A stretch of DNA of 64,000 nt. Origin: Escherichia coli. Lineage in GTDB: Bacteria; Pseudomonadota; Gammaproteobacteria; Enterobacterales; Enterobacteriaceae. Both the position numbers and the translations under genes were made by a program. Positions 241 through 59,865 of the stretch are shown one piece after another (within the stretch, counting starts at the first letter, position 1; every line of letters starts with the position of its first letter). A model generated the notes under the pieces. It saw nothing but the letters and a program-made list of their open reading frames with translations. It had not been told where the DNA came from and did no database searches. The DNA lies in assembly GCF_003790525.1 (NCBI RefSeq), contig NZ_CP033635.1, one strand, 5' to 3'.

Positions 241-316
241 TGGTGGCCCCTGTTGGGTTTGAACCAACGACCAAGCGATTATGAGTCGCCTGCTCTAACC
301 ACTGAGCTAAGGGGCC
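241..316 (-). tRNA. ileX: tRNA-Ile2 (anticodon CAU, lysidine-type)
   Basis: Minus-strand sequence ggccccttagctcagtggttagagcaggcgactCATaatcgc...ggggccacca: 76 nt, cloverleaf-compatible, anticodon loop cuCAUaa, encoded 3' CCA. Position next to mug/rpoD matches ileX. Confidence 0.85.
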
Positions 317-1003: not shown

Positions 1004-1567
1004 TTATTCTTCCGCCAAACGGTCTCTGACTACCATAAGCGCAAATCCCAGCAGATTTTTCCCCTTCCAGTGAGATGGCACACCGGCATGGGGATGATCT
1101 TTTGCAAGGCCAATCCCCCAGATTTTATCCACCGGGCTGGCTTCAACCAGAATGCGAGGCTGCGTATTCAGCAGGAATGTTTTTAATGCCGAATGTTGGC
1201 TAAATTTATGGTAGTTCCCTTCGCAGACCAGATCAAAGCAGCAAGCTTGCCAGCATTGCTCGTCAAAGTTTGTCACCTGTCGCCCCAGCTTTTTGGCTTC
1301 TGCCGGGGTCGCCGCCGCCAGAATTCTGGCAAGTGTTTTACTGTCATTAAACAGCCGCGCTTTTCCCGCCATCATCCAGTGTTCTGCGGTGGCATAGGTT
1401 ATACCATCATAGGTAAAAGGCGAACCCTGCCACCACTGGCTAAAGCAAGAGGCGGTAATTTCGTGATTCGCGGCAGGTTGATGGCCCCAGAACCACAGGT
1501 ATTTCACCTTTTTCCCGGCATCGAGAGCGGAAATAAGGGCGGGGAGAGAGTAGTATCCTTGCTGCAT
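1004..1567 (-). CDS. NADAR (DUF1768) / YbiA-like N-glycosidase family protein
   Basis: 187-aa ORF with NADAR-type motifs (TAEHWMMAGKARLF; DKIWGIGL...WKGKNLLGFALMVVRDRL) resembling YbiA; AGGA SD upstream of the ATG at 1567. Not present between rpoD and mug in K-12 as I recall. Confidence 0.8.
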   Translation of the reverse strand: MQQGYYSLPALISALDAGKKVKYLWFWGHQPAANHEITASCFSQWWQGSPFTYDGITYATAEHWMMAGKARLFNDSKTLARILAAATPAEAKKLGRQVTNFDEQCWQACCFDLVCEGNYHKFSQHSALKTFLLNTQPRILVEASPVDKIWGIGLAKDHPHAGVPSHWKGKNLLGFALMVVRDRLAEE

Positions 1568-19661: not shown

Positions 19662-21095
19662 ATGAAAGTAACGCTGCCAGAGTTTGAACGTGCAGGAGTG
19701 ATGGTGGTTGGTGATGTGATGCTGGATCGTTACTGGTACGGTCCCACCAGCCGTATCTCGCCGGAAGCGCCGGTGCCCGTGGTTAAAGTGAATACCATCG
19801 AAGAACGTCCGGGCGGCGCGGCTAACGTGGCGATGAATATCGCTTCTCTCGGTGCTAATGCACGCCTGGTCGGGTTGACGGGCATTGACGATGCAGCGCG
19901 CGCGCTGAGTAAATCTCTGGCCGACGTCAACGTCAAATGCGACTTCGTTTCTGTACCGACGCATCCGACTATCACCAAATTACGGGTGCTTTCCCGCAAC
20001 CAACAGCTGATTCGTCTGGATTTTGAAGAAGGTTTCGAAGGTGTTGATCCGCAACCGCTGCACGAACGGATTAATCAGGCGCTGAGTTCGATTGGCGCGC
20101 TGGTGCTTTCTGACTACGCCAAAGGTGCGCTGGCAAGCGTACAGCAGATGATCCAACTGGCGCGTAAAGCGGGTGTTCCGGTGCTGATTGATCCAAAAGG
20201 TACCGATTTTGAGCGCTACCGCGGCGCTACGCTGTTAACGCCGAATCTCTCGGAATTTGAAGCTGTTGTCGGTAAATGTAAGACCGAAGAAGAGATTGTT
20301 GAGCGCGGCATGAAACTAATTGCCGATTACGAACTCTCGGCTCTGTTAGTGACCCGTTCCGAACAGGGTATGTCGCTGCTGCAACCGGGTAAAGCGCCGC
20401 TGCATATGCCAACCCAGGCGCAGGAAGTGTATGACGTTACCGGTGCGGGCGACACGGTGATTGGCGTCCTGGCGGCAACGCTGGCAGCGGGTAATTCGCT
20501 GGAAGAAGCCTGCTTCTTTGCCAATGCGGCGGCTGGTGTGGTGGTCGGCAAACTGGGGACATCCACGGTTTCGCCGATCGAGCTGGAAAACGCAGTACGT
20601 GGACGTGCAGATACCGGCTTTGGCGTGATGACCGAAGAGGAACTGAAGCTTGCTGTAGCGGCAGCGCGTAAACGCGGTGAAAAAGTGGTGATGACCAATG
20701 GCGTCTTTGACATCCTGCACGCCGGACACGTCTCTTATCTGGCAAATGCCCGCAAACTGGGTGACCGTTTGATTGTCGCCGTCAACAGCGATGCCTCCAC
20801 CAAACGGCTGAAAGGGGATTCCCGCCCCGTTAACCCGCTTGAACAGCGTATGATTGTGCTGGGCGCACTGGAAGCGGTCGACTGGGTGGTGTCGTTTGAA
20901 GAAGACACGCCGCAGCGCTTGATCGCCGGGATCCTGCCAGACCTGCTGGTGAAAGGCGGCGATTATAAACCAGAAGAGATTGCCGGGAGTAAAGAAGTCT
21001 GGGCCAATGGTGGCGAAGTGCTGGTGCTCAACTTTGAAGACGGTTGCTCGACCACTAACATTATCAAGAAGATCCAACAGGATAAAAAAGGCTAA
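19662..21095 (+). CDS. hldE: Bifunctional D-beta-D-heptose 7-phosphate kinase / heptose 1-phosphate adenylyltransferase
   Basis: 477-aa [31 protein letters not shown]... Confidence 0.95.
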
Positions 21096-21139
21096 CCGGA
21101 AAGCGCTTCACAGTTCTCGCGTTGTGCCGGATAGACCTA

Positions 21140-21168
21140 TTGACGCTGTTGTTTTTTCAACCTAAAGT
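21140..21168 (+). promoter_or_regulatory. Sigma-70 promoter of Sib antisense RNA, copy 1
   Basis: TTGACG (21140-21145), 17-bp spacer, TAAAGT (21163-21168). Confidence 0.55.
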
Positions 21169-21174
21169 AAAGGA

Positions 21175-21323
21175 ACAAGGGTAAGGGAGGATTTCTCCCC
21201 CCTCTGATGAGTTGTTAGTAAGTCGGGAAACTTAACAGTAACAACACAACCAGTATGATGACGAACTTCATCATAACCCTTTCCTTCTATAAGGCCCCTT
21301 CCTCGGGAGGGGCTTTCCCGTTT
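21175..21323 (+). ncRNA. sibD: Sib-type antisense RNA (antitoxin of a type I toxin-antitoxin pair), copy 1; ends approximate
   Basis: Plus-strand transcript predicted from the promoter above; fully complementary to the ibs ORF and its RBS; ends at the hairpin ccccttcc-tcgg-gagggg (21295-21312) followed by a U-rich stretch. Confidence 0.5.
21215..21274 (-). CDS. ibsD: Ibs-family type I toxin, 19 aa (MMKFVIILVVLLLLSFPTY)
   Basis: Minus strand: ATGATGAAGTTCGTCATCATACTGGTTGTGTTGTTACTGTTAAGTTTCCCGACTTACTAA, with a GGAAAGGG SD upstream. Confidence 0.7.
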   Translation of the reverse strand: MMKFVIILVVLLLLSFPTY

Positions 21324-21515
21324 CAGCCCCTTGCTGACTCCCCGATTGTTGATGAGCGCCAGACCCCGCGCAATGCTTTCTCTTATGCAGTTTTCTCTTC
21401 CCCGAGTCGGCTCGCAAAACGCTGTAACAACCTGATCATTTGTACTTTTTAGCAGAACGCAGATATAAAAAATCCCCGGCTTTTTGGGCCAGGGATATGT
21501 GTTAATGAAACCTTC

Positions 21516-21544
21516 TTGACGCTGTTGTTTTTTCAACCTAAAGT
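21516..21544 (+). promoter_or_regulatory. Sigma-70 promoter of Sib antisense RNA, copy 2
   Basis: TTGACG (21516-21521), 17-bp spacer, TAAAGT (21539-21544). Confidence 0.55.
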
Positions 21545-21550
21545 AAAGGA

Positions 21551-21700
21551 ACAAGGGTGAGGGAGGATTTCTCCCCCCTCTGATTGGCTGTTAATAAGTG
21601 GCGAAACTTACAAGTAACAACACAATCAGTATGATGACGAGCTTCATCATAACCCTTTCCTTCTGTAAGGCCCCTTCCTCGGGAGGGGCTTTCCCGTTTC
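21551..21700 (+). ncRNA. sibE: Sib-type antisense RNA, copy 2; ends approximate
   Basis: Same architecture as copy 1, with the terminator hairpin at ~21671-21688. Confidence 0.5.
21591..21650 (-). CDS. ibsE: Ibs-family type I toxin, 19 aa (MMKLVIILIVLLLVSFATY)
   Basis: Minus strand: ATGATGAAGCTCGTCATCATACTGATTGTGTTGTTACTTGTAAGTTTCGCCACTTATTAA. Confidence 0.7.
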   Translation of the reverse strand: MMKLVIILIVLLLVSFATY

Positions 21701-21888
21701 AGCCCTTTGCTGACTCCCCGATTGTTGATGAGCGCCGGACCCCGCGCAACGCTTTCCCTGAGGCAGTTTTGCCTTCCCCGAGCGGTCACGCAAAACGTTG
21801 CAACGACCTGATCATTTGCAGTTTTTAGCGGAACGCAGATATAAAAAATCCCCGGCTTTTTGTGCCAGGGATGTTCATAGCTGAAAAT

Positions 21889-23550
21889 TTATTCTACGTT
21901 TTCGGCGACGGGAGTTGTTGAGGTTAAGGGTGAAGTCAATGCAGCCAGTGAGCCGCCTGAAACGCCAATTTCATTGAGCAAGGAGTCAATCAGCGGTGCC
22001 TGTGTGCGGTAAGAAAGGGCGGCAGACAATGCCTGTTCTGCCAGGTTTCCGCCACTAACGCTGCCTGATGCCGCATCCCCCGCAGCACCACCTCGGTTTA
22101 ATCCATCGACCTGAATAATCTTAATGCCGTCAATGGACTTCATCGGCTCAACGGATTTCTCTATTACTGCAGGTAACGACTGTAATAGCGCCAGTTTGAA
22201 TTTAAGGCTGGTTTGCTCGTCAGAAAGTACGTTGATAGCGTCGTTCAGCGCACGTTGCGCTTCTGCTTCCGCCAGGCCTTTTTTGCGTGTTGCTTCGGCT
22301 AACTCAACGATCGCCGCCGCCTGCATCTCTGCGGCTTCTTTCTCTGCTTTCGCCCGCACGGTCAGTTCAACCGCTTTGGTTTCTGCATCCTGCGCGGCAG
22401 CGATTAGGGCAACTTGTTTAGCACGATCGGCTTCTGCGGTCTGGCGAGTGGTTTCTACGTTTTGCTGGGCGCTTACCGCTTCTGCAAGTGCAAGGTTGGC
22501 ACGCGCTTCCGCTTGTGACTGCTGTTCCGATTTGGCGGCAATAGCGATCGATTTCGTCTGGTTGGCGATTTCGGTGACCTGCTGTTGTTCGATCTCTTTA
22601 ATGCGAACTTCACGTTCAGCTTCAACTTTTCTTGAGCGGACGGCCTGTTCGCGGTCGATTTCTGTTTCCTGAATCTGTCGTTCAGCCAGAATTCGCGTCT
22701 GCTCTGCTTCACGACGACGTTCAGCTTCAAAAGCCGCAATTTTCGCATTCTGCTCAGCGGTACGGGTTTTAACCTGCTGCTCCTGCTCAAGCGTCATAAA
22801 CGCTTCTTGTTGTTCAATCTCCAACTTGCGCGAAAGTGCATCACGGTTTTTCTCACGCACCGCAACTTCTACATCCTGTTCAACTTCGTTACGTTCGCGA
22901 CGACGGCGCTCCGTCTCCTGCGTCAGCTTGGTTAAACCTTCGGCGTCAAAGGCGTTGTTAGGATTGAAATGTTCTTTCGACGTCTGGTTAAAGTTGGTAA
23001 GTGAAACGCTTTCCAGTTCCAGGCCGTTTTTCGACAGATCTTCAGCAACGGTATTTTGTACGCCCTGCACGAAGTTCTCGCGGGTATCCTGTAACTCATG
23101 CATGGTCATTTGCGCAGCTGTTGCACGGAGGGCATCGACAAATTTATCTTCAACCAACATACGTAAGTCTTCAGGCGACAGGGTGCGTTGCCCCAGCGTC
23201 TGGGCAGCGGTGGCGATCCCTTCTACTGAAGGTTTTACCCGCACAAAGAAAGCGACAACGACATCGACGCGCATACGATCTTTCGTAATCAGGCTATCAA
23301 TGGTTGAGCGGCTGACTTCCAGCTTCAGAGTATTCATATTGATGGGGATTATTTCATGGAAGATCGGCATCACGATTGCGCCACCGCTCATTACCACTTT
23401 TTGCCCACCTAAACCAGTACGAACAAAAGCTTGCTCTGCCGAAGCGCGACGATAGAGCCTGGCGAAAATAATTCCAATAATAAACAGAATGCATACGGCA
23501 ATAATCGCGGTAAACATCCAGGAGGGCACAGAATTAACAATATCATCCAT
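21889..23550 (-). CDS. yqiK: SPFH/flotillin-like membrane protein
   Basis: 553-aa ORF with an N-terminal TM helix, band-7 domain and long coiled-coil, E/Q/A-rich region. Confidence 0.85.
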   Translation of the reverse strand: MDDIVNSVPSWMFTAIIAVCILFIIGIIFARLYRRASAEQAFVRTGLGGQKVVMSGGAIVMPIFHEIIPINMNTLKLEVSRSTIDSLITKDRMRVDVVVAFFVRVKPSVEGIATAAQTLGQRTLSPEDLRMLVEDKFVDALRATAAQMTMHELQDTRENFVQGVQNTVAEDLSKNGLELESVSLTNFNQTSKEHFNPNNAFDAEGLTKLTQETERRRRERNEVEQDVEVAVREKNRDALSRKLEIEQQEAFMTLEQEQQVKTRTAEQNAKIAAFEAERRREAEQTRILAERQIQETEIDREQAVRSRKVEAEREVRIKEIEQQQVTEIANQTKSIAIAAKSEQQSQAEARANLALAEAVSAQQNVETTRQTAEADRAKQVALIAAAQDAETKAVELTVRAKAEKEAAEMQAAAIVELAEATRKKGLAEAEAQRALNDAINVLSDEQTSLKFKLALLQSLPAVIEKSVEPMKSIDGIKIIQVDGLNRGGAAGDAASGSVSGGNLAEQALSAALSYRTQAPLIDSLLNEIGVSGGSLAALTSPLTSTTPVAENVE

Positions 23551-25124: not shown

Positions 25125-25375
25125 GAATCCGCTTATTCTCAGGGCGGGGCGAAATTCCCCACCGGCGGTAAATCAACTCAGTTGAAAGCCCGCGAGCGCT
25201 TTGGGTGCGAACTCAAAGGACAGCAGATCCGGTGTAATTCCGGGGCCGACGGTTAGAGTCCGGATGGGAGAGAGTAACGATTCTGTCGGGCATGGACCCG
25301 CTCACGTTATTTTGGCTATATGCCGCCACTCCTAAGACTGCCCTGATTCTGGTAACCATAATTTTAGTAAGGTTT
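25125..25375 (+). ncRNA. FMN riboswitch (RFN element) in the ribB leader
   Basis: Conserved RFN segments agggcggggcgaaattccccaccggcggta ... ccggggccgacggttagagtccggatgggagaga directly upstream of ribB. Confidence 0.8.
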
Positions 25376-40069: not shown

Positions 40070-42211
40070 TCAAAATTCCATTTTCACCGTGAATTGCACT
40101 TCACGAGGATCGCCAATCTGGTTGCCCAGATTATTTGTGGCGATGGAAGAGGTGTAATACGTTTTATCAAACAGGTTTTTGACGTTTAATTGCAGTGTGA
40201 CCGGATACTGCAATTTCATTTTGTATGCGGCGAAGGCATCGGCAACGAAATAGCCTGGCAGATAATAGTCAGCCCCATTGGTTGCCGAACGACGGCTTAC
40301 GCCATGTCCACCACCGCCAAACGTCAGTGTGTTATTGCCAGGCATGTTATGAATGTCATAAGTCAGGAATAGCGAACCGGTATGACGAGGAACATTCGGC
40401 AATGGTTTCCCTGCATAATCAGGATCCTCCAGAACCTTAGCATCGGTATAGCCGTAGCTGGCAATGATATTAATGTTTTCAGTTAATGCTCCCGCAAGGT
40501 CGACTTCTACCCCTCTTGAACGAACACGGCCTGCCGTTTTGGCAATGGTTTCATCACCAACACTTTCGGTATACAACACATTACGTTTATGGATATCAAA
40601 CAGCGCAATATCTGCGGTGATACCATCGAATAGCTCGAATTTTGCCCCGACTTCGTAAGCATTAGATGATTCCGGTGGAAGATCGCCAATGTAGCTGGCA
40701 ATTGACGACTGCGGCATAAATGTTTGCGAATAATTGGCAAATAAGGATACCGATGGCGTCAGTTTGTAGACTAACCCCAGTTTGGGAGTCCATTGTTCAT
40801 CGCGGCTGTCAGTATTGACATTAAAAGGACGGCCTTTACCCGCATACTGCGTGTAATACTGATAGCGGATCCCGGCGACGGCAATCCAGTTATCGGTCAG
40901 ATAGAGTGCGTCCTGTGCATACGCTGAGTAGCTCTCCTGTTTGATCGTCTGATCACTGTCCGACGCCGAAACCGTTGTACATTTGCTGGTATTACCATAA
41001 ACAGGGTTGTAGATATTGAAATCTTTAGCTTTTTTACAGCGAATCATATCTGTACGCAGAAGATCATAATATTCATATGACACCCCACCCAGAATCTCAT
41101 TATAGAATCCGGCAATATCAACATTCCCTTGCAGATCCGCACGAGTAGCATGCATACGCTGGGTAGATCCCTGAGTTGCATCAACACGCCGTGTCAGTGT
41201 TCCTGTCGTTGCATCATACGCGGTAACACGCGCCTGATTATCGCTGTATTTATCCTGGCTGTAGCTGTAATCAAAGCGCGCTGTCCACTGGCTATTGAGA
41301 TGATATTCTGCGTTGAGTTGCGCCAGATCGGACTTTCCATCTGTAATATTAAACGGTTCGTCAAAACGTATTTTTCGATCAACGTTTACGGGCTGTTTCG
41401 TCGTAAGGTCGAAAATCGTTCCACGATCGAACGGAGTTTTATAGTCCCGATGGGAATAGAGCATAGTTACTGTTGCATTATCACCAAACCAGGTGAGTGA
41501 CGGGGCAATAAATGTACTGCGCTCTTTACCGAAGTTTCGCCAGTAATCTTCATCCTGCACTTCCCCGGTAAGGCGATACGCCAGCTGAGTGCCTTCAATG
41601 GGACCTGTGATATCAAGTTGCCCAGTGCCGCCACCAAAACTGGAGGAGGTGGCTGAAACCGAACCATGGAATGTTTTTTCCGGGCGCTTGGTCACGACGT
41701 TAATCAGTCCACCAGGATCGAGAATGCCATACAGCGTGGAGGCCGGACCTTTTAGCACTTCCACACGTTCTGTGGCGGCGTTGAAACTGCGAGGAAGTAC
41801 AGTTCGCAGGCCGTTGGTCATGATGGAGCCATCCCGGTTAGCACCAAACCCACGACGTACAAAGGCGTCCTGAGTTCCGCCTAATGTATTGGTCTGTACC
41901 ACGTTACTGACGTTATAAAGCGCTTCATCCAGCGTCGTCGCATTCTGATTTTCCAGAACCTGATCGCTAACAGTATTGACCACCTGCGGGATATCCAGCA
42001 TCGGCATATCGGTTAATGTCGCCGTGGAAGTGCTCAGAGGTTGATAACCATCGGTTGCCTCAGTTGCGGTATTTGCATCTGCTGTAACAGTGATTGTTTC
42101 GCCATCTTTGGTCGTTACAGAGTCTGTTGCATGAATCATCGGTGCCGCAAAAAGCAGTGAAAAGAGCGCCCGACCTTTGAGTCCTGAGAATGAAGGTGTG
42201 AACATAGCCAT
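40070..42211 (-). CDS. TonB-dependent outer-membrane siderophore receptor (accessory)
   Basis: 713-aa ORF with a signal peptide, TonB box ETITVTA, plug and beta-barrel, and a C-terminal aromatic residue (MEF). Confidence 0.85.
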   Translation of the reverse strand: MAMFTPSFSGLKGRALFSLLFAAPMIHATDSVTTKDGETITVTADANTATEATDGYQPLSTSTATLTDMPMLDIPQVVNTVSDQVLENQNATTLDEALYNVSNVVQTNTLGGTQDAFVRRGFGANRDGSIMTNGLRTVLPRSFNAATERVEVLKGPASTLYGILDPGGLINVVTKRPEKTFHGSVSATSSSFGGGTGQLDITGPIEGTQLAYRLTGEVQDEDYWRNFGKERSTFIAPSLTWFGDNATVTMLYSHRDYKTPFDRGTIFDLTTKQPVNVDRKIRFDEPFNITDGKSDLAQLNAEYHLNSQWTARFDYSYSQDKYSDNQARVTAYDATTGTLTRRVDATQGSTQRMHATRADLQGNVDIAGFYNEILGGVSYEYYDLLRTDMIRCKKAKDFNIYNPVYGNTSKCTTVSASDSDQTIKQESYSAYAQDALYLTDNWIAVAGIRYQYYTQYAGKGRPFNVNTDSRDEQWTPKLGLVYKLTPSVSLFANYSQTFMPQSSIASYIGDLPPESSNAYEVGAKFELFDGITADIALFDIHKRNVLYTESVGDETIAKTAGRVRSRGVEVDLAGALTENINIIASYGYTDAKVLEDPDYAGKPLPNVPRHTGSLFLTYDIHNMPGNNTLTFGGGGHGVSRRSATNGADYYLPGYFVADAFAAYKMKLQYPVTLQLNVKNLFDKTYYTSSIATNNLGNQIGDPREVQFTVKMEF

Positions 42212-42311
42212 TTAGTCTGTTATCCCAAAAACTCGCGGATTGTCGCGAGTGAAAATTGTTTCTTATTGCTCACTAAGCACTATCCGTTTGTTATTTCGCC
42301 ATCGGATATGT

Positions 42312-42330
42312 AATTGAGAATCATTCAATC
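42312..42330. promoter_or_regulatory. Candidate Fur box in the divergent receptor/ABC promoter region
   Basis: aattGAGAATCATTCaatc partially matches the GATAATGATAATCATTATC consensus (about 12 of 19). Confidence 0.25.
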
Positions 42331-42584
42331 ACGCAGTAATGTAGTAGTAAATGAGAAATAACAAAAAATTGCTACATGTGTTTTTATGAAAAGTTTATAC
42401 AATTTGATTGCTTTTAATTTATTGATATTTAATGGTTTTGTTTTTATGTGCAAAAATATTTTACCTGTTATTTACCTTGTTTTTGTGTGGCTTTTAACTG
42501 CTTGACTACTACATTTTGTGGCGTCAAACTCTCAAAGGAGAATGAGTTTTATTTTTGTTTGTCTTTGATTAAGTTGGCGTACAC

Positions 42585-43394
42585 GTGGCACATAACGCAA
42601 AAGGGCAGGGGCTGATCCTCGACAATGTTTCTGCCGGGTATCACAAGAAAATCATTGTTGATGGTGTTTCTTTCTCCGTTCCCACAGAAAAAATGACCGT
42701 TCTGGTTGGGGCAAACGGCTGTGGAAAGTCGACGCTGCTCAGCACCATTGCTCGTATCTTGCAACCCATGGGCGGTTCGATATTGCTGGATGGTAAAGCG
42801 ATTCACGAGCAACCAACGAAAGCGTTATCCCGTAGACTTGGGATCTTGCCGCAGTCGCCATTATTGCCGGAGGGCTTAACCGTTTATGAACTGGTGTCGC
42901 GTGGGCGTTTTCCCTGGCAGAATTTCATTCGTCAATGGAGCGACGCCGATGAGCTGGCGGTAGAAGAGGCCCTGAAATTAACGGGTACGCAGGAGTTTGC
43001 ACATTTACCTGTTGAAAAACTCTCTGGTGGGCAGCGCCAGCGTTGCTGGATTGCGATGGTGTTGGCGCAAAAGACGCCTTATATCCTGCTGGATGAACCC
43101 ACAACCTGGCTTGATTTACGTTATCAGGTTGAAATTCTTGAGTTATTACATGATTTAACGCGTCATCACGGGCGTACAGTCGTCGTGGTGTTGCATGATC
43201 TGAATTTTGCCGTCAATTATGGCGATACGTTGATATTTTTACGCCAGGGGAAAGTGGTGCGTGTGTTGAATGAGGGGGAGCATTGCACGCCTGAGCTGGT
43301 AAAAGCGGTCTTTGACGTTGATGTTCACGCATCAATAAATCCTCTGACGGGAAAGCCGTTCTTCATGCCGTTTCGTGGTGTAGAAAAAGTATGA
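42585..43394 (+). CDS. ABC transporter ATP-binding protein (FecE/FepC-like)
   Basis: Walker A GANGCGKST, signature LSGGQRQR, Walker B ILLDEP; GTG start with a weak SD. Confidence 0.85.
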   Translation: MAHNAKGQGLILDNVSAGYHKKIIVDGVSFSVPTEKMTVLVGANGCGKSTLLSTIARILQPMGGSILLDGKAIHEQPTKALSRRLGILPQSPLLPEGLTVYELVSRGRFPWQNFIRQWSDADELAVEEALKLTGTQEFAHLPVEKLSGGQRQRCWIAMVLAQKTPYILLDEPTTWLDLRYQVEILELLHDLTRHHGRTVVVVLHDLNFAVNYGDTLIFLRQGKVVRVLNEGEHCTPELVKAVFDVDVHASINPLTGKPFFMPFRGVEKV

Positions 43395-44374
43395 TGCGCA
43401 CAGGGCTGGTTACTGTAATTTTCCTCGCCTTACTGCTGGTGGGATGCGTGGTATATCCAGGGATTGGTGCCCGATTTATTGCACCACAAACGGTGTTGCA
43501 GGCATTTCTTCATTTTGATCCGCAAAACTTCGATCACAACGTAATTGTAAGACTCCGTTTGCCGCGTTTAGCGGCAGCATTGCTTACCGGTGCTTCTCTT
43601 GGAGTTGCTGGTGCTTTGTTGCAGGCTGTCATTCGTAACCCATTGGGGGAGCCACATATTTTAGGCTTAAATGCCGGAGCCGCTCTTGCTGTCGTTGCTG
43701 CCAGTGCGCTTGGGCTGGCCTTTCCGGTTGGACGCCCACTGCTGGCATCTACGGGCGGCGCGTTATTGTTCCTGTTGATATTGCTGCTTTCCTCCGCAGG
43801 GCGTTCAGGGTTAACGCCAATGAAAGTTACTTTATGCGGCGTGGCGCTATCGGCGTTCGTGTCCTCAATAACGGCTGCAATCCTGATTCTTGACGAACAA
43901 ACACTGCTGGCGATGCGGACATGGCTAGCAGGTGATTTAGCGGGGCAGGATTGGGCGACGCTGGGTACGTCCGCCTGGTTTTCTCTGGGGGGATTTGTGT
44001 TAGCCCTTTACCTTGCACCCTCCCTTAACATGTTGGCACTGGGCGATCGCATGGCGCAGGGGCTGGGCGTCTCTGTATTCCGCACGCGAACATTCACCCT
44101 GCTTGCGATCGCGTTGCTCTGTGGCGCAGCCGTATCGATTGCTGGCCCCATTGGTTTTGTCGGCCTGCTAGTACCGCAGATTGTCCGGCGTCTGGTATCA
44201 GCGGATCTGCGCGTTCTGCTCCCTCTTTCAGCTTGTGTCGGCGCACTTTTGTTATTACTGGCAGATATTATTGCCCGTACGCTTTTCACACCCCATGAGT
44301 TAGCGACCGGTGTCATGACGGCGTTAGTTGGTGCGCCTGTTTTTGTCATTATGGCGACGAGGATGTTCAAATGA
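43391..44374 (+). CDS. ABC transporter permease, FecCD family
   Basis: 327-aa polytopic ORF; start overlaps the ATPase stop. Confidence 0.85.
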   Translation: MMRTGLVTVIFLALLLVGCVVYPGIGARFIAPQTVLQAFLHFDPQNFDHNVIVRLRLPRLAAALLTGASLGVAGALLQAVIRNPLGEPHILGLNAGAALAVVAASALGLAFPVGRPLLASTGGALLFLLILLLSSAGRSGLTPMKVTLCGVALSAFVSSITAAILILDEQTLLAMRTWLAGDLAGQDWATLGTSAWFSLGGFVLALYLAPSLNMLALGDRMAQGLGVSVFRTRTFTLLAIALLCGAAVSIAGPIGFVGLLVPQIVRRLVSADLRVLLPLSACVGALLLLLADIIARTLFTPHELATGVMTALVGAPVFVIMATRMFK

Positions 44375-45420
44375 GTCGGATAATGAACGTCGGGCTACGC
44401 CCACTACGTGTTGGTAAGTTTTCGACACTGGTACGCCCTAAAAATCTGCTGTTGCTTGGTGGGCTGTTCCTGCTTGCGGTTGGAATACTGATATTCGGTC
44501 TGATGCAGGGTTCTTTCTCTGTTCCGGCATCGGAAGTAGGACGAGCGTTGTTTGCTCCAGAAAACGTAAGCACAGACGCACGTTATATTGTGCAGGATAT
44601 TCGCTTGCCGAGAGTCATCATGGCATTGCTATGCGGGGCCATGTTAGGTATGGCAGGGGCCGCAATGCAATCCATTGCACGTAACGGCCTTGCCGATCCT
44701 GGTTTAATCGGCGTCAAAGAAGGATGTAGCGTGGCTGTGCTGTGGCTGATTTTCCAGTTTCCAATGCTGGGAATGTTCTGGCGTCCAGTGGCTGGTCTTG
44801 CTGGTGGCCTGTTGGTGGCTTTAATCGTGATTTTTTGTGCGCGCGATATTTCCCGCCCGCGATTTGTTCTGATTGGTATTGGTGTTTCCTGGTTTTTCGC
44901 CGCCGGTATCGGTGTATTTATGACCACTGCAGATGTTCGAGATGTACAAACTGCATTGATGTGGTTATCGGGAAGCCTGCATGCAGCTAACTGGATGTTA
45001 GTCGCTATTTCAGCCTGTTGGATGTTGCCAGCCGCTCTTTTATTGCTGTTCACCGCCAGGACGGCGGATATCGCTCTGCTTGGTCATCAGGTTGCAACCG
45101 GGTTAGGGGTGAATAGTTCTCGTCTGGCGTTGTTACGTGTCGCTGCACCCATAATCCTGACAGCCGTCTGCGTTTCGTGTGTTGGTAACATCGGTTTTGT
45201 CGGATTGATAGCACCCCATATATCACGTTTTATTCTACGTGGCGGGCAGACGACATTACTGCTGGGGAGCGCGGTATCGGGGGCGTTGTTAGTTATTCTG
45301 GCGGATAGCATTGGTCGTTTGGCTTTTTTGCCTTTGCAACTGCCTGCCGGAATCATTATCTCACTGATTGGTGGACCATTTTTTTTGCTACTGCTCTGGC
45401 AGCGCAGGAACAGTTTTTAA
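44371..45420 (+). CDS. ABC transporter permease, FecCD family
   Basis: 349-aa polytopic ORF; overlaps the upstream permease by 4 nt. Confidence 0.85.
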   Translation: MSRIMNVGLRPLRVGKFSTLVRPKNLLLLGGLFLLAVGILIFGLMQGSFSVPASEVGRALFAPENVSTDARYIVQDIRLPRVIMALLCGAMLGMAGAAMQSIARNGLADPGLIGVKEGCSVAVLWLIFQFPMLGMFWRPVAGLAGGLLVALIVIFCARDISRPRFVLIGIGVSWFFAAGIGVFMTTADVRDVQTALMWLSGSLHAANWMLVAISACWMLPAALLLLFTARTADIALLGHQVATGLGVNSSRLALLRVAAPIILTAVCVSCVGNIGFVGLIAPHISRFILRGGQTTLLLGSAVSGALLVILADSIGRLAFLPLQLPAGIIISLIGGPFFLLLLWQRRNSF

Positions 45421-45430
45421 CGGGAGTTAT

Positions 45431-46378
45431 ATGCGTTTATTTTTTTCTCTGCTGATACTGTTGTCATTTTTTTCCCGTGCAACAGAACCTGTTCAGGTAT
45501 TTACTGATGATTTAGGGCGCAAAGTCACTGTTCCTGCTCATCCAAAGAGAATTGTCTCTTTACACGATCTTGATATCACTATTCCTCTGATTGAGCTCGG
45601 TGTACCTCCTGTCGCCAGCCACGGGCGAACTCGGCCTGACGGTAGCCATTTCATTCGATCTGGCGCGTTATTGACAGGTGTCGACTTTGATAATTCATCG
45701 ATCGCCTTTATTGGTACCGCTGATATTGATATTGAAGCGATTGTGGCGGCAAAGCCTGACCTGATCATCACAGAACCGACCCGTAATACGCCCATTGAAC
45801 AACTTGAAAAAATTGCGCCCACGGTGAGCATTGATCATCTCAAAGGGGGCGCGCCAGAAATCTATCGCAAGCTGGCAGAACTTACAGGAACGCAGTCGCA
45901 GCTGGCGATACTTGAACGCCGCTATCAGGCACAAATCAATGCGCTGAAGGCGACGCTGGACAGCCAAAAAATAACGGTATCGGTGATTCAGGCAAACCAG
46001 GGAAAAATTAATGTGATGCATAGCTATCATTCGCTGGGGCGGGTATTACGCGATGCTGGTTTTCGTTTTCCGCCGCTGATTGAGAGCATTCCTGAAGGTG
46101 GGCGAATGGATGTGAGCGCGGAGCGTTTACCTGAACTGGATGCCGATTTTGTTTTTGCAACCTGGCGCGGTGACACCGGTGGTAAACCTCAGGATGAGCT
46201 GGCAGCAATGGAAAAAGTCATGCCGGGATGGTGTCAGTTTCTGACTGCCTGTCGTTCCGGGCGTTATGTGCTGATTTCTCGTGAAGAGGCGATTTCTAAC
46301 TCCTTTGCATCTCTGGGGCTGATGGCTGCGCAGATACAATCACAAATTGCAGGGCGACCTCTACCGGAGGATAAATGA
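45431..46378 (+). CDS. Periplasmic substrate-binding protein (FecB/FepB-like, cluster A)
   Basis: Product starting MRLFFSLLILLSFFSRA (signal peptide) at the ATG at 45431, with a GGGAG SD. Confidence 0.8.
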   Translation: MRLFFSLLILLSFFSRATEPVQVFTDDLGRKVTVPAHPKRIVSLHDLDITIPLIELGVPPVASHGRTRPDGSHFIRSGALLTGVDFDNSSIAFIGTADIDIEAIVAAKPDLIITEPTRNTPIEQLEKIAPTVSIDHLKGGAPEIYRKLAELTGTQSQLAILERRYQAQINALKATLDSQKITVSVIQANQGKINVMHSYHSLGRVLRDAGFRFPPLIESIPEGGRMDVSAERLPELDADFVFATWRGDTGGKPQDELAAMEKVMPGWCQFLTACRSGRYVLISREEAISNSFASLGLMAAQIQSQIAGRPLPEDK

Positions 46379-47262
46379 TCCAGAAAGATAAAGCGCGGGT
46401 TGATATTTTTGGTGAGCGTTTTCGCACTCGCGCGAGTCAGTTAACGCCTGGGTTAAGAGTTGTCGCCAGCTACATTAATGAGCATCGTGAAGTGGTACTC
46501 GAGCAAACGGCGATGGAAATTGCGGCCACGTTGAACACTTCCGATGCCACAGTTATCAGGGCTATACAGGCCCTGGGGTTTGCCGGGCTGCGTGATCTGA
46601 AACGCACTCTGGAACAGTGGCTTGGTCCAGCCCTTAGTTCCAGCGAAAAGATGTCTACGACGGTGAGTAACTTGACGAGCGATGTTAACACCGCAATCGA
46701 CTTTGTTCTTGAAGGGCATTTGTATACCTGTAATGTCCTGTCAGAGCCTGAAAACCGCCACGCGCTTGCGCAAGCTGTAGCGTTGTTGGTGCAGGCACGG
46801 CAAGTCGCTATTTTTGGCATTGGCGCTTCGGGTATCCTGGCGGACTATACCGCACGACTATTCAACCGCATAGGTTTGCCTGCCACGGCACTAAACCGTA
46901 CGGGTATTGGCCTTGCCGAGCAACTGATCGCGCTTCAACGTGGCGATGTTCTGATCATGATGGCGCAAAAATCTGCGCACCGGGAAGGGCTGACAACGCT
47001 TCGTGAGGCGAGGCGGCTGGGGATCCCTGTTATTTTGCTGACAAACGCGCTGGATTCACGTTTTAGCAAAGACGCCAGTATCGTGATTCATGTTCCGCGC
47101 GGGGATGAAAAAGGGAAAACGCCGCTACATGGTACGGTATTGTTGTGTCTGGAAATGATTGTCTGGTCGGTAGCTTCCGCAGTGCCGCAGCGTGCGGTTA
47201 AAACCATTAAGCGAATTAACGATTTCCATCGAGGACTGAAAACGGGAAGAAAGAATGGCTAA
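46375..47262 (+). CDS. RpiR/MurR-family transcriptional regulator (HTH plus SIS domain)
   Basis: 295-aa ORF with an N-terminal HTH (TAMEIAATLNTSDATVIRAIQALGFAGLRDLK) and a SIS phosphosugar-binding fold (IFGIGASGILA); overlaps the binding-protein stop. Confidence 0.8.
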   Translation: MIQKDKARVDIFGERFRTRASQLTPGLRVVASYINEHREVVLEQTAMEIAATLNTSDATVIRAIQALGFAGLRDLKRTLEQWLGPALSSSEKMSTTVSNLTSDVNTAIDFVLEGHLYTCNVLSEPENRHALAQAVALLVQARQVAIFGIGASGILADYTARLFNRIGLPATALNRTGIGLAEQLIALQRGDVLIMMAQKSAHREGLTTLREARRLGIPVILLTNALDSRFSKDASIVIHVPRGDEKGKTPLHGTVLLCLEMIVWSVASAVPQRAVKTIKRINDFHRGLKTGRKNG

Positions 47263-47306
47263 TCTGGGCTGAGACCGGTAGCAACACCGGCCTCTTTTCA
47301 GGAATG

Positions 47307-48342: not shown

Positions 48343-49692
48343 TTACCAGCTTACTTTCGCCTCAAATCCACCTTGTTCCGCATTCCCAAACTCAACATTC
48401 ATGTCATGCAGCTTGGCGATTCGCTGGACAATTGAAAGCCCAAGTCCACTGCCGGTAGCGGTTTGTCCGGGTGGGCGATAGAAGCGTTCGCCAATTCTCG
48501 CCAGTGCCTCTGGCGTCACACCGGGGCCGTTATCCTTCACGATGAAATTATCGGCATTCAGCGTGACGTCCACCACGCAGCCCTGTGGACTGTAGCGCAC
48601 GGCGTTATCCAGAAGGTTTCGTACCAACAAACTTAGCAACAGCGGTTGTCCGGTGCGTTTGATGCCGTGGGCATTGAGTGTCAGTCGCACGTCAATTTTC
48701 GCCTGCTGCGCCGTGTGGTAAATATCCATCACCGACGATTGCAGGAGATCTTCAAGCGGGATCTCCGCGACGTCCTGAAGGTTATCCAGTGAGTCCAGCC
48801 GCGATAGCGTGAGCAGTTGATCAACCAGACGAGTAGCGCGATCGATCCCGGAATGTAATTGGAGCAGCGCTTTTTTCCGCGCCTGCGGATCATCGTCAGA
48901 GAGCTGAGCAACTTCGGTTTGCACTTTCAGCGCCGTTAACGGGCTACGAAGTTCGTGAGCTGCGTCGGAGGTAAAGCGTCGTTCACGAACCATCATCGCA
49001 TGTGTGCGGGCGAACAGTTGATTCAACGACTCAACCAGTGGGCGCACTTCGCTGGGTACGCCCGTCGCGTTTAGTGGTTTTTCCGAGTCTGGGTCACGCA
49101 TACGTAGTGCCAGCGCCAGTTTGTTCAGCGGCGCGAGTTCACGACCCAGTAGTACCATCATGATGATTAACATAATCGGCAGTGCGACCAGCCACGGGAT
49201 CAATTGTCCGGCAACAATCGCCAGCGCCATGTCTTCACGGTATTCCCATTCCTGACCAACAACAATGCGATATTTGCCATCAGGTGAGGTCATCCAGACA
49301 AAACGCCATTGATCTTTATCGCCCACCAGTTGCCCGTCAGCAAAACCTTCTCGTTGATAGCTATAAGGAATATCTTCTCCATTATCGCCATCGTTAAGGA
49401 CCATTCTGCCGTCGTGGGTAAAGATGGCAAAGGTCAGCGCATCGTCATCAACATGACCGTGTTTTAATTTATTTGGCGTCTGTGCCATGCGATCCGCCGC
49501 GTTGATTTCGTTGAGATCGAGCGTACTTAACCGTTTGGCAAACAGCATCAGTTGGGTGTCGAACAACTCATCGACGTTATCCGTTGTTTGTTTCCAGGCG
49601 ACAAAGCTGGAAAGCAGCCAGGTCACCGAGGCCAGAATTAAAAAGATTAGCGTTAGCCTGACTCGCAGACTAAGACGTTGGGTAAATTTCAT
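48343..49692 (-). CDS. qseC: Sensor histidine kinase QseC
   Basis: 449-aa ORF with two TM helices, an H-box ([12 protein letters not shown]) and an ATPase domain. Confidence 0.9.
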
Positions 49693-50348
49693 TTCTCACC
49701 TAATGTGTAGCCAATACCATGAACGGTACGAATAAAATCACTGCCGAGTTTGCGTCGCAGATGATGCACATGCACTTCAACGGCATTACTGGTGACCTCT
49801 TCGTCCCAGGTATACAGTTTCTCTTCAATCAGTTTGCGCGGCAGTACCCGACCAGCGTTACGCATCAGTAATTCCAGCAGGGCAAATTCTTTTGGCTTCA
49901 GCGTTAAGGGTTCGCCAGCCAGCGTGGCGATACGTTTGCCGGGGTCGAGCATGACGTTGCCGTGGCGCAGCTCGTTGCTGGCCTGGCCGTTGGTTCGGCG
50001 CATCAGAGCTTCCAGCCTGGCGGCGACTTCTATCAACGCAAAAGGTTTACACAGATAATCGTCAGCTCCCAGACGCAGCCCTTCTACACGTTCCGCCAGC
50101 GCATCGCGCGCGGTCAGGATCAAAACCGGCTCACGCTGACCTTTTTCTCGCCATTCGCGCAAAATATCGCGACCATCCATGCCCGGTAAGGTTAAATCCA
50201 GGATCACCGCATCATAAGGTGCGCTATATAGCGCCTCTTTTCCCTGACGACCTTGTGTAAACCAGTCGACGCTAAAACCCATTTTACTAAGGCCCGTTTT
50301 GATGCCGTCGCCAATCAGCATGTCATCTTCTATCAGTAAAATTCGCAT
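49689..50348 (-). CDS. qseB: Response regulator QseB (OmpR family)
   Basis: 219-aa [18 protein letters not shown]...; overlaps the qseC start. Confidence 0.9.
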
Positions 50349-50499
50349 TTTTTCATCCCTGCGATAACCGTATTTGCTGCCAGTAAACCGTGTTGTAACG
50401 CGCTCTGTACAGCATTAAATTTTATTTTTTTCCCTTAAGAAGTTGTTAAGGACTATCTTGTTAAATGCTCGGAAACAGACATTAAAGGGAGTAATAAAC

Positions 50500-50892
50500 A
50501 TGAAAAAATACGCAGCAGTAATCGCAGTAATGGCCCTGTGCAGTGCACCGGTTATGGCAGCAGAGCAGGGAGGTTTTTCTGGCCCATCGGCAACGCAAAG
50601 TCAGGCCGGAGGATTCCAGGGGCCGAATGGCAGCGTAACGACTATAGAAAGCGCAAAATCCCTGCGTGACGACACCTGGGTAACCCTGCGCGGCAATATC
50701 GTTGAACGCATCTCTGACGATCTCTACGTGTTCAAAGATGCCAGCGGTACTATCAATGTTGATATCGACCACAAACGCTGGAACGGCATGACGGTGACGC
50801 CGAAAGATACGGTTGAGATTCAGGGTGAAGTCGATAAAGACTGGAATTCTGTTGAAATTGACGTCAAACAGATCCGCAAAGTAAATCCGTAA
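50500..50892 (+). CDS. ygiW: OB-fold periplasmic stress protein (BOF family)
   Basis: 130-aa product MKKYAAVIAVMALCSAPVMA...; ATG at 50500 with an AAGGGA SD. Confidence 0.85.
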   Translation: MKKYAAVIAVMALCSAPVMAAEQGGFSGPSATQSQAGGFQGPNGSVTTIESAKSLRDDTWVTLRGNIVERISDDLYVFKDASGTINVDIDHKRWNGMTVTPKDTVEIQGEVDKDWNSVEIDVKQIRKVNP

Positions 50893-50944
50893 TTGTTACC
50901 GCTCCCGGGACACGTTCCCGGGAATAATTTCGCAGGGAGGCAAA

Positions 50945-51427
50945 ATGACAAACCTGACACTGGATGTAAATATTATCGATTTCCCATCAATCCCTGTGGC
51001 GATGTTGCCGCACCGCTGTAGCCCTGAGTTGCTCAACTACAGTGTGGCGAAATTTATCATGTGGCGTAAAGAGACGGGGCTTTCTCCTGTTAACCAAAGC
51101 CAGACTTTTGGCGTCGCCTGGGACGACCCTGCCACCACCGCACCAGAAGCGTTTCGCTTTGATATCTGCGGCAGCGTTAGCGAACCGATCCCCGATAATC
51201 GTTATGGCGTAAGTAATGGTGAACTTACCGGTGGACGTTATGCTGTGGCCCGCCATGTTGGCGAGCTGGACGATATTTCACACACGATATGGGGCATCAT
51301 TCGCCACTGGCTTCCGGCAAGCGGCGAAAAAATGCGCAAGGCCCCGATCCTGTTTCACTACACCAATCTTGCCGAAGGGATGACAGAGCAGCGACTGGAA
51401 ACAGATGTTTATGTGCCGTTGGCGTGA
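50945..51427 (+). CDS. ygiV: GyrI-like domain protein
   Basis: 160-aa ORF MTNLTLDVNIIDFPSIPVAML... Confidence 0.8.
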   Translation: MTNLTLDVNIIDFPSIPVAMLPHRCSPELLNYSVAKFIMWRKETGLSPVNQSQTFGVAWDDPATTAPEAFRFDICGSVSEPIPDNRYGVSNGELTGGRYAVARHVGELDDISHTIWGIIRHWLPASGEKMRKAPILFHYTNLAEGMTEQRLETDVYVPLA

Positions 51428-51535
51428 TGAAGAATCTTTACCGGAGTGTGAGCCAAATCACTCGCGATAAGTTTGAGCGAACAATGCCACAGGCGTATTG
51501 TTGTTGGGCTTATAATTTCTCCGGTAAGGAATACC

Positions 51536-59414: not shown

Positions 59415-59865
59415 TAATATTCATTACTGAATACCAGACCAGAATAAGTCCACTGACAGGCATAACCCAATATACTTTATCCATTGGCCATTTTAATACT
59501 GGAGAGATTTGTCCAACATGTTGTGCTTTTTCAACAACAATATTCCCGCCATAGATCATGAAAATAACCGCAAAGACCGTAATAATAATTTGGATAAAAC
59601 TGTCAAGCGTCAGAACAGATGCAGCCGGAAGTTTTTGAGCCAACAAATCAATGGCCAGATGTTTTTTTAACCCCGCAGTATATACACCGCCAAGTAAAAT
59701 CATCCACATAAATAAAATCTGGGTGAACTCATCAAGCACAGTGCTGGGAGCGTTAAAAATAAAACGTGCAATAACTTGCTAGGTTACGCAGAACACCATA
59801 ATGGCGAGAATAATGCAGCAACATCCGGCAAGGATCTTATTAAGAATATGAGTGAGTGTTCGCAT
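59383..59865 (-). pseudogene. TRAP transporter small permease (DctQ family) interrupted by an in-frame TAG at codon 29
   Basis: ATG at 59865 with a GGAAG SD, giving MRTLTHILNKILAGCCCIILAIMVFCVT, then TAG (59781-59779), then the frame continues QVIARFIFNAPSTVLDEFTQILFMWMILLGG... to 59383. Confidence 0.6.

What the first reader, a model, noticed from the sequence alone, without database searches (positions are those of the whole stretch)
21135..21886. Tandem Sib/Ibs type I toxin-antitoxin repeats hidden under spurious long ORFs
Two ~376 bp near-identical units each carry a strong plus-strand sigma-70 promoter and, on the minus strand, a 19-codon hydrophobic ORF with its own SD (MMKFVIILVVLLLLSFPTY and MMKLVIILIVLLLVSFATY). 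This is the Ibs toxin / Sib antisense-RNA arrangement known between yqiK and hldE in E. coli. The six-frame track instead reports 130-, 83-, 65- and 76-aa ORFs here, which are artefacts of the repeat. The two toxin copies differ at 4 of 19 residues, so they have diverged.
Basis: partly seen in the sequence, partly recalled or inferred. Interest (0 to 1): 0.55.

Follow-up and report, generated by a model that had tools for sequence, protein, structure and literature searches.

The report
Known E. coli sibE/ibsE and sibD/ibsD toxin-antitoxin pairs

Summary
Window 21135-21886 holds two head-to-tail 376-bp units that are 335/376 (89%) identical with no gaps. Each unit matches Rfam RF00113 (SIB_RNA) on the + strand at 142 and 144 bits, against a gathering score of 56. 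Each also carries an intact 19-codon hydrophobic ORF with a Shine-Dalgarno sequence on the - strand.

The window is E. coli, differing from strain SMS-3-5 at 3 positions over about 42 kb. The repeats sit between hldE and yqiK, where K-12 MG1655 annotates sibE/ibsE and sibD/ibsD. RefSeq calls both peptides 'type I toxin-antitoxin system Ibs family toxin' (WP_001387082.1, WP_100249717.1). Each differs from its K-12 counterpart by one residue (IbsE L4F, IbsD A18T).

The 130-, 83-, 65- and 76-aa ORFs are not conserved. They shrink, shift or vanish in other strains, whereas the 19-codon ibs ORF is intact in all 18 copies across 10 loci. The two long ORFs scanned against Pfam gave no significant hit, and none of the four hit NCBIfam.

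The mechanism is taken from K-12 experiments and was not tested here. A constitutive Sib RNA of about 145 nt, fully antisense to the ibs mRNA, represses synthesis of a membrane-depolarising peptide.

Verdict: interpretation supported, already known, low interest. Strain-level details are minor: a rarer sibD allele, and a single-base difference between the two copies in the TRD2 recognition region.

The parts
21135..21510 (.). Repeat unit 1, the sibE/ibsE module next to hldE
   Evidence: Direct repeat with 376-bp spacing. 89.1% identical to unit 2. Aligns with the K-12 sibE unit.
21511..21886 (.). Repeat unit 2, the sibD/ibsD module next to yqiK
   Evidence: Its toxin ends in ...IVLLLVSFA-Y like K-12 IbsD.
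21140..21168 (+). sibE promoter, TTGACG-17-TAAAGT
   Evidence: Promoter scan. It corresponds to positions 1-29 of the Rfam SIB model. The sib minimal promoter is published in PMC12956327.
21175..21318 (+). SibE antitoxin RNA, about 144 nt, starting with +1 A at 21175. The terminator hairpin is at 21291-21316.
   Evidence: Rfam RF00113, 142.2 bits. Ends transferred from the K-12 sibE annotation, measured from the ibsE ORF. +1 A confirmed. Predicted fold -51.8 kcal/mol, z = -3.4, with a terminal hairpin.
21215..21274 (-). ibsE, 19 codons plus stop: MMKFVIILVVLLLLSFPTY
   Evidence: Translation. Identical to WP_001387082.1, annotated as an Ibs family toxin. One residue (L4F) differs from K-12 IbsE.
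21277..21286 (-). Shine-Dalgarno region of ibsE, AAGGAAAGGG, 2 nt before the ATG
   Evidence: Read from the sequence.
21337..21373 (-). Inferred ibsE promoter (TTGCGC-17-AACAAT) and mRNA start at about 21337
   Evidence: Carried over from the primer-extension-mapped ibsD start in K-12 (PMC2943612). Hexamers verified in the window. This part is an inference.
21472..21496 (-). Terminator-like hairpin followed by a T-run. It is an internal copy of the yqiK terminator, lying between the ibsD and ibsE modules.
   Evidence: Terminator scan. One mismatch to the copy at 21848-21872.
21516..21544 (+). sibD promoter, TTGACG-17-TAAAGT
   Evidence: Identical to the unit 1 promoter over 35 bp.
21551..21695 (+). 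SibD antitoxin RNA, about 145 nt, starting with +1 A at 21551. The terminator hairpin is at 21667-21692.
   Evidence: Rfam RF00113, 144.4 bits. 5' end ACAAGGGTGAGGG and 3' end GGGAGGGGCTTTCCC match the SibD primers in PMC2943612 and the K-12 annotation. Predicted fold -57.4 kcal/mol, z = -4.8.
21591..21650 (-). ibsD, 19 codons plus stop: MMKLVIILIVLLLVSFATY
   Evidence: Translation. Identical to WP_100249717.1, annotated as an Ibs family toxin. One residue (A18T) differs from K-12 IbsD.
21653..21662 (-). Shine-Dalgarno region of ibsD, AAGGAAAGGG
   Evidence: Read from the sequence.
21713..21749 (-). ibsD promoter (TTGCGC-17-AACAAT) and mRNA start at about 21713. The mRNA runs to about 21553.
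   Evidence: The published ibsD +1 sequence TCAGCAGGGGGCTG and the 3' primer AAGGGTGAGGG (PMC2943612) map here. The window reads TCAGCAAAGGGCTG.
21848..21872 (-). Intrinsic terminator of yqiK (stop codon ends at 21889), included in the repeat unit
   Evidence: Terminator scan. yqiK ORF at 21889-23550 on the - strand.

Best explanation
The region holds two tandem copies of the E. coli Sib/Ibs type I toxin-antitoxin module: sibE/ibsE next to hldE and sibD/ibsD next to yqiK.

In each unit a sigma-70 promoter on the + strand drives a structured Sib RNA of about 145 nt that ends at an intrinsic terminator. On the opposite strand a weaker promoter drives an ibs mRNA of about 160 nt. Its 5' UTR, Shine-Dalgarno sequence and 19-codon ORF lie almost entirely inside the Sib transcription unit.

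Sib pairs with its own ibs mRNA through two recognition regions. TRD1 lies within the ORF and TRD2 lies over the translation initiation region. Pairing blocks translation and leads to mRNA decay, so the hydrophobic Ibs peptide is not made. When Ibs is made, it inserts in the inner membrane, depolarises it and lowers ATP.

The anatomy, the homology and the synteny are shown here. Transcription, repression and toxicity are inferred from published K-12 and Salmonella experiments. The long ORFs are chance open frames across non-coding or antisense sequence.
For: - RNA family: Rfam SIB_RNA at 142 and 144 bits against a gathering score of 56, full model length, both units.
- Occurrence: 5425 of 5426 complete E. 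coli genomes match the region, and the features annotated beneath the match are Ibs family toxins.
- Synteny: the order is glnE-hldE-ibsE-ibsD-yqiK-yqiJ, as in K-12, where sibD (b4447), ibsD (b4664), sibE (b4611) and ibsE (b4666) are annotated.
- Toxins: the peptides are identical to RefSeq WP_001387082.1 and WP_100249717.1. Each is one residue from its K-12 counterpart.
- Promoter, +1 A and terminator: all present. The published sibD 5' and 3' ends and the ibsD start site map onto the window.
- Specificity: differences between the two units cluster in the published recognition regions. TRD1 differs at 4 of 22 positions and TRD2 at 1. This fits cognate-only repression as described in PMC2943612.
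- ORF conservation: the 19-codon ORF is intact in 18 of 18 copies across 10 loci, while the long ORFs vary.
- Published function: Ibs overexpression is lethal and is repressed by Sib (PMC2943612 introduction). Sib RNAs start with +1 A and are NAD-capped from a 35-bp promoter (PMC12956327). Salmonella IbsA from the same yqiK-rfaE (hldE) intergenic region is a 19-aa toxin that inhibits FoF1 ATP synthase, and its 65-aa annotation was shown to be wrong (bioRxiv 10.1101/2025.05.26.656083).
Against: Nothing in the sequence argues against it. The limits are these:
- No expression or toxicity data exist for this strain.
- K-12 labels IbsD only a 'putative toxic peptide'.
- NCBIfam gave no Ibs model hit for the peptides padded to 23 aa. 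That library therefore provided no independent HMM test of membership for the peptide.
- The ibsE promoter and start site are assigned only by homology to ibsD.
Confidence: 0.96

Rival explanations
1. One or more of the long ORFs (130, 83, 76 or 65 aa) is a real protein-coding gene, and the short ORFs are incidental.
For: The frames are open in the window. The 130- and 83-aa frames are also open in three other strains: A5, 258E and O157:H7.
Against: - In K-12, a BL21 derivative, PK5086 and MS20674, frameshifts cut the 130-aa frame to 76 aa. The 83-aa frame becomes 67 or 47 aa in K-12 and MS20674.
- The 130-aa frame crosses the unit junction, so it cannot exist in single-unit strains.
- NCBIfam gave no hit for any of the four. 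The two scanned against Pfam (130 and 76 aa) gave no significant hit; the best was E = 0.008 to a herpesvirus family.
- Neither RefSeq nor the K-12 annotation calls them.
- They overlap the Sib RNA, terminator hairpins and promoters.
- In Salmonella the analogous 65-aa annotation was disproved experimentally.
Confidence: 0.01
2. The modules are decaying relics, with sequence homologous to sib/ibs but no longer a working toxin-antitoxin pair in this strain.
For: About a third of sampled E. coli genomes have lost one of the two units (9 of 30 evenly spaced rows), so one copy is dispensable. The physiological role of chromosomal type I systems remains debated.
Against: - Both units keep every functional element: the Sib promoter (35 of 35 positions identical between units), +1 A, the folded RNA with its terminator, the ibs promoter hexamers, the Shine-Dalgarno sequence, the start codon, 19 codons and the stop codon.
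- The ibs ORF is intact in 18 of 18 copies examined.
- The amino-acid changes are conservative and hydrophobic.
Confidence: 0.03

Closest known systems
E. coli K-12 sibE/ibsE (b4611/b4666) and sibD/ibsD (b4447/b4664), described by Fozo et al. 2008 as cited in PMC2943612
   Same: Same intergenic region (hldE-yqiK), same order and orientation, and the same tandem period (376 bp here, 375-376 bp in K-12). RNA length, promoter, terminator and the 19-aa toxins also match. The 793-bp region is 92.9% identical to K-12.
   Different: - IbsE carries L4F and IbsD carries A18T.
- The sibD TRD1 region reads GTGGCGAAACTTACAAG here against GCTGCGAAACTTACGAG in K-12.
- The sibE TRD2 region reads CCTTCTATAAGG here against CCTTATACAAGG in K-12.
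- The sibE -10 hexamer is TAAAGT here against TAGAGT in K-12.
- All of these are allelic differences. The sibE alleles also occur in O157:H7, A5 and 536.
E. coli SMS-3-5 and CREC-544 chromosomes
   Same: CREC-544 is 100% identical over the 793-bp locus. SMS-3-5 differs from the window at 3 positions after window position 300, over about 42 kb. Both Ibs proteins are annotated there.
   Different: None at the locus. RefSeq annotates only the ibs coding sequences in these records, not the Sib RNAs.
Salmonella Typhimurium sibA/ibsA in the yqiK-rfaE intergenic region (bioRxiv 10.1101/2025.05.26.656083)
   Same: Same genomic neighbourhood, a 19-aa toxin, a cis-antisense Sib RNA, and a history of a misleading longer ORF annotation.
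   Different: It is a single copy rather than a tandem pair. The reported FoF1 target and the dependence on His3 were shown for Salmonella IbsA, and the peptides here have Lys at position 3.
Other tandemly repeated type I systems such as ldr/rdl of E. coli
   Same: A small hydrophobic toxin, a cis-encoded antisense RNA, and tandem duplication within one intergenic region (PMC2887945).
   Different: The Ldr toxin family is unrelated (35 aa), and the antisense RNA overlaps the 5' UTR rather than the whole ORF.

Membership tests
Sib RNA (Rfam RF00113, SIB_RNA) | Covariance-model score above the curated gathering threshold over the full model | tested here: met
   142.2 and 144.4 bits against a gathering score of 56, model positions 1-147 of 147, + strand. 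Reverse-strand matches reach only 30-31 bits.
Sib RNA (Rfam RF00113, SIB_RNA) | Own sigma-70 promoter, defined +1, RNA of about 140 nt ending at an intrinsic terminator | tested here: met
   At sequence level: TTGACG-17-TAAAGT, +1 A, a terminal 11-bp hairpin, and a length of 144-145 nt by transfer from the K-12 annotation. Actual transcription was not tested.
Sib RNA (Rfam RF00113, SIB_RNA) | Fully antisense to an ibs ORF including its translation initiation region | tested here: met
   Sib spans 21175-21318 and 21551-21695. These contain the ibs ORFs at 21215-21274 and 21591-21650, together with their Shine-Dalgarno sequences.
Sib RNA (Rfam RF00113, SIB_RNA) | Orthologous position to K-12 sibD/sibE (hldE-yqiK intergenic region) | tested here: met
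   The order glnE-hldE-[unit 1]-[unit 2]-yqiK-yqiJ is identical to K-12.
Ibs toxin family | ORF of 18-19 codons encoding a highly hydrophobic peptide with a Shine-Dalgarno sequence | tested here: met
   MMKFVIILVVLLLLSFPTY and MMKLVIILIVLLLVSFATY, each preceded by AAGGAAAGGG.
Ibs toxin family | Sequence identity or near-identity to characterised Ibs proteins | tested here: met
   18 of 19 residues identical to K-12 IbsE and to K-12 IbsD. Exact matches to WP_001387082.1 and WP_100249717.1, both named Ibs family toxin.
Ibs toxin family | Match to a curated protein HMM | tested here: inconclusive
   NCBIfam returned no Ibs model for the peptides padded to 23 aa. The peptides are too short for the Pfam tool (30 aa minimum) and for the cluster look-up (20 aa minimum).
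Ibs toxin family | Overexpression is toxic and depolarises the membrane | not testable with these tools
   Known for K-12 Ibs proteins (PMC2943612) and for Salmonella IbsA. Not measured for these alleles.
Type I toxin-antitoxin system | The antisense RNA represses synthesis of its cognate toxin | not testable with these tools
   Perfect cis complementarity is shown by the sequence. Repression itself is inferred from K-12 SibC/ibsC and SibD/ibsD experiments.

The most novel reading that the evidence does not exclude
In this lineage the two modules may not be fully independent of each other. SibD and SibE differ by a single base (G at 21665, A at 21289) in the single-stranded TRD2 seed. SibD could therefore pair with the ibsE translation initiation region over about 55 nt, interrupted only by one G-U wobble, and so cross-protect against IbsE. 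TRD1 keeps 4 mismatches in 22 positions. The rarer sibD allele also changes three TRD1 positions and gives IbsD A18T. If cross-repression occurs, one antitoxin would back up the other, which might help explain why about a third of strains tolerate losing one unit. The single-base TRD2 difference is also seen in O157:H7, A5 and 258E, so it would be a general E. coli feature and not specific to this window.
Probability: 0.15. Interest if true: 0.2.

Novelty: already known. Interest (0 to 1): 0.07.

Why it matters
It matters little for discovery. These are textbook chromosomal type I toxin-antitoxin loci, annotated in K-12 and present in essentially every E. coli genome.

The practical value is as a check on annotation. 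19-codon toxin genes and their antisense RNAs are invisible to ORF tracks with a length cut-off, and spurious long frames can stand in their place. That same error was made, and corrected by experiment, for the Salmonella locus.

RefSeq records for the closest strains annotate the ibs coding sequences but not the Sib RNAs.

Tried and rejected
- NCBIfam scan of the two peptides (padded to 23 aa) and the four long ORFs. No Ibs model was hit. There was one weak, irrelevant hit (RC1041 family, E = 0.05) and nothing for the long ORFs.
- Pfam scans of the 130-aa and 76-aa ORFs. There were no hits apart from a meaningless E = 0.008 match to a herpesvirus glycoprotein family. The 83- and 65-aa ORFs were not scanned against Pfam.
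- The founding paper (Fozo et al. 2008, PMID 18710431, PMC2597788) is not held in the library. What it showed is cited through PMC2943612, PMC2887945 and the 2025 preprint.
It was not pursued.
- A permissive Rfam scan of 21000-22000 found nothing else credible. The mir-7, GadY and NsiR1 matches lie far below their gathering scores, at E = 0.2-0.8.
- I considered whether the 150 bp between the Sib terminator and the internal hairpin hides another gene. It holds the ibs promoter, K-12 annotates nothing there, and no RNA family matches it.
- I ran no further search on the long ORFs, because the comparison between strains already settles the question.

Full report
**What is in the sequence**

Window 21096-21888 is the intergenic region between hldE and yqiK. 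hldE is on the + strand, with a 477-aa ORF ending at 21095. yqiK is on the - strand, with a 553-aa ORF ending at 21889.

The region contains one family of direct repeats with start-to-start spacing of 376 bp. Taken as full units, 21135-21510 and 21511-21886 are identical at 335 of 376 positions (89.1%) with no gaps. Similarity stops at both outer edges.

Each unit has these elements:
- A TTGACG-17-TAAAGT promoter-like site on the + strand.
- An A at the expected transcription start, 21175 or 21551.
- A 19-codon ORF on the - strand, MMKFVIILVVLLLLSFPTY or MMKLVIILIVLLLVSFATY, preceded by AAGGAAAGGGTT.

The 19-aa ORFs are not listed, because the lister's minimum is 20 aa. The only correction is that 'near-identical' overstates 89%.

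**What it is**

A scan of the whole window against Rfam gives two matches to RF00113 (SIB_RNA, an antitoxin RNA). They lie at 21140-21289 and 21516-21665 on the + strand and score 142.2 and 144.4 bits against a gathering score of 56, over the whole model.

A megablast of the 793-bp region against 5,426 complete E. coli genomes finds it in 5,425 of them. The features annotated beneath the match are 'ibsE' and 'type I toxin-antitoxin system Ibs family toxin'. Strain CREC-544 is 100% identical over the locus, and there the gene order is glnE-hldE-ibsE-ibs-yqiK-yqiJ. SMS-3-5 differs from the window at 3 positions after position 300, over about 42 kb. The window therefore comes from SMS-3-5 or a very close relative.

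In the reference K-12 MG1655 record the same place carries sibE (b4611) with ibsE (b4666) next to hldE, and sibD (b4447) with ibsD (b4664) next to yqiK. Unit 1 is therefore sibE/ibsE and unit 2 is sibD/ibsD.

The peptides equal WP_001387082.1 and WP_100249717.1. Each differs from K-12 IbsE (MMKLVIILVVLLLLSFPTY) or K-12 IbsD (MMKLVIILIVLLLVSFAAY) by one residue.

**Anatomy in window coordinates**

RNA ends were transferred from the K-12 annotation by distance from the ibs ORFs. This gives SibE at 21175-21318 and SibD at 21551-21695. The SibD ends agree with the published SibD primers, 5' ACAAGGGTGAGGG and 3' GGGAGGGGCTTTCCC (PMC2943612).

Both RNAs are predicted to fold into a closed multi-stem structure followed by an 11-bp terminator hairpin. 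The energies are -51.8 and -57.4 kcal/mol, with z-scores of -3.4 and -4.8 against shuffled sequences.

The ibsD mRNA start mapped by primer extension in K-12 (TCAGCAGGGGGCTG) corresponds to 21713 on the - strand. Upstream of it lies TTGCGC-17-AACAAT, and the in-vitro 3' end corresponds to about 21553. The same elements lie 376 bp to the left for ibsE. That assignment is an inference by homology.

Sib and the ibs mRNA therefore overlap almost end to end.

Each unit also carries a hairpin followed by a T-run on the - strand, at 21872-21848 and 21496-21472. The outer one is the yqiK terminator, so the duplicated segment ran from the Sib promoter to the yqiK terminator.

**The long ORFs**

I compared ten loci: the window, K-12, 536, A5, 258E, O157:H7, a BL21 derivative, PK5086, MS20674 and ampC_0069. 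The 19-codon ibs ORF is intact in all 18 copies.
- The 130-aa frame is 130 aa in four loci, 76 aa in four, and absent in the single-unit strains.
- The 83-aa frame becomes 67 or 47 aa in K-12 and MS20674.
- The + strand frames vary between 59, 65 and 76 aa.

None of the four has an NCBIfam match, and the 130- and 76-aa ORFs, the two scanned against Pfam, have no significant match. Neither RefSeq nor the K-12 annotation calls them.

A close precedent exists. The single ibs gene in the same intergenic region of Salmonella was annotated as a 65-aa protein, and start-codon mutagenesis and Western blots showed that it makes only the 19-aa peptide (bioRxiv 10.1101/2025.05.26.656083).

**How it works**

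This section rests on published work and was not tested here.
- E. coli K-12 has five Sib RNAs of about 140 nt. Each is encoded opposite an ibs gene for an 18-19-aa hydrophobic peptide. Overexpression of that peptide damages the envelope and is lethal, and constitutive Sib expression represses the toxicity (PMC2943612 introduction, citing Fozo et al. 2008).
- Repression is specific to the cognate pair. It works through two independent recognition domains. TRD1 pairs inside the ORF and TRD2 pairs over the translation initiation region, and repression leads to mRNA degradation.
- SibC, SibD and SibE start with +1 A, and a large share of their transcripts are NAD-capped. [quoted passage not shown]
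- Salmonella IbsA binds the a and b subunits of Fo and blocks proton translocation, which lowers ATP.

In the window, the differences between the two units fall where this model predicts. Twelve of the 41 differences lie in the Sib RNA. Four are in the 22-nt TRD1 segment (AGTCGGGAAACTTAACAGTAAC versus AGTGGCGAAACTTACAAGTAAC) and one is in TRD2 (CCTTCTATAAGG versus CCTTCTGTAAGG). The 35-bp promoters are identical.

**Strain-level details**

- The exact allele combination is uncommon. Only 30 of 5,428 matching records are at least 99% identical to the window over the locus.
- The sibD unit carries a TRD1 allele and the A18T toxin that I otherwise saw only in the single-unit strain ampC_0069.
- The sibE TRD2 allele is shared with O157:H7, A5, 258E and, apart from a 1-nt deletion in its Shine-Dalgarno region, 536. 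It differs from sibD by one base, whereas K-12 has three differences.
- That leaves open some cross-pairing of SibD with the ibsE initiation region, interrupted only by a G-U wobble. This is speculation, and I rate it at about 0.15.
- About 9 of 30 evenly sampled genomes have only one unit. The surviving toxin can be E-type, as in 536, or D-type, as in ampC_0069. This is what unequal crossing-over between tandem repeats would produce.
- Variation in ibs copy number between strains is already documented (PMC2887945).

**Verdict**

The locus is already known and already annotated, and interest is low. What remains untested here is wet-lab only: transcription, toxicity and cognate specificity of these particular alleles.

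Noticed in passing
window 1004-1567 (- strand): A 187-aa ORF between mug and rpoD is annotated as a 'NADAR family protein' in matching genomes. The segment is covered at 80% or more in only 62 of 5,426 complete E. coli genomes, SMS-3-5 among them. CREC-544 lacks it. It is a rare accessory gene wedged next to rpoD.
   Followed up: partly
window 21096-21888, compared with L003 (strain 536) and L013 (strain ampC_0069): Copy number at this locus varies between strains. About 9 of 30 evenly spaced genome hits have a single unit. The survivor is E-type in 536 and D-type (the same A18T allele as the window) in ampC_0069, which suggests independent deletions by unequal crossing-over.
   Followed up: partly
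L003 (E. coli 536), Shine-Dalgarno region of its single ibs gene: Strain 536 has a 1-nt deletion in the Shine-Dalgarno / TRD2 segment (CCCTTTCTTCT instead of CCCTTTCCTTCT). This would weaken the ibs ribosome-binding site.
   Followed up: no
window 21472-21496 and 21848-21872 (- strand): The yqiK intrinsic terminator is part of the duplicated unit. A second copy therefore sits between the ibsD and ibsE modules, where it could insulate ibsE from read-through.
   Followed up: partly
window 25131-25279 (+ strand): FMN riboswitch (RF00050, 120.9 bits) upstream of ribB, as annotated in the matching genomes.
   Followed up: no
window 241-316 (- strand): A tRNA with anticodon CAT. ARAGORN calls it tRNA-Met, but RefSeq annotates the orthologue as tRNA-Ile. 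That fits a lysidine-modified ileX-type tRNA, which is my reading from general knowledge and was not tested.
   Followed up: partly
window 59383-59865 (- strand): The TRAP transporter small-permease gene has an in-frame stop at codon 29. CREC-544 annotates the orthologue as a pseudogene with an internal stop.
   Followed up: partly
about window 40100-47300, and about 49300-52500 (coordinates converted from the CREC-544 annotation, not checked base by base): Two gene clusters lie among core genes and look like accessory genes. The first is a siderophore uptake cluster between ygiN and parE: a TonB-dependent receptor, FecCD permeases, an ATPase, a binding protein and a MurR/RpiR regulator. The second is an aryl-sulfate sulfotransferase-dsbL-dsbI cluster between ygiC and ygiD.
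   Followed up: no
RefSeq records NZ_CP024826.1 and NC_010498.1 at the locus: The RefSeq annotation of these records lists the two ibs coding sequences but no ncRNA feature for SibD or SibE. The K-12 reference record lists both RNAs.
   Followed up: yes
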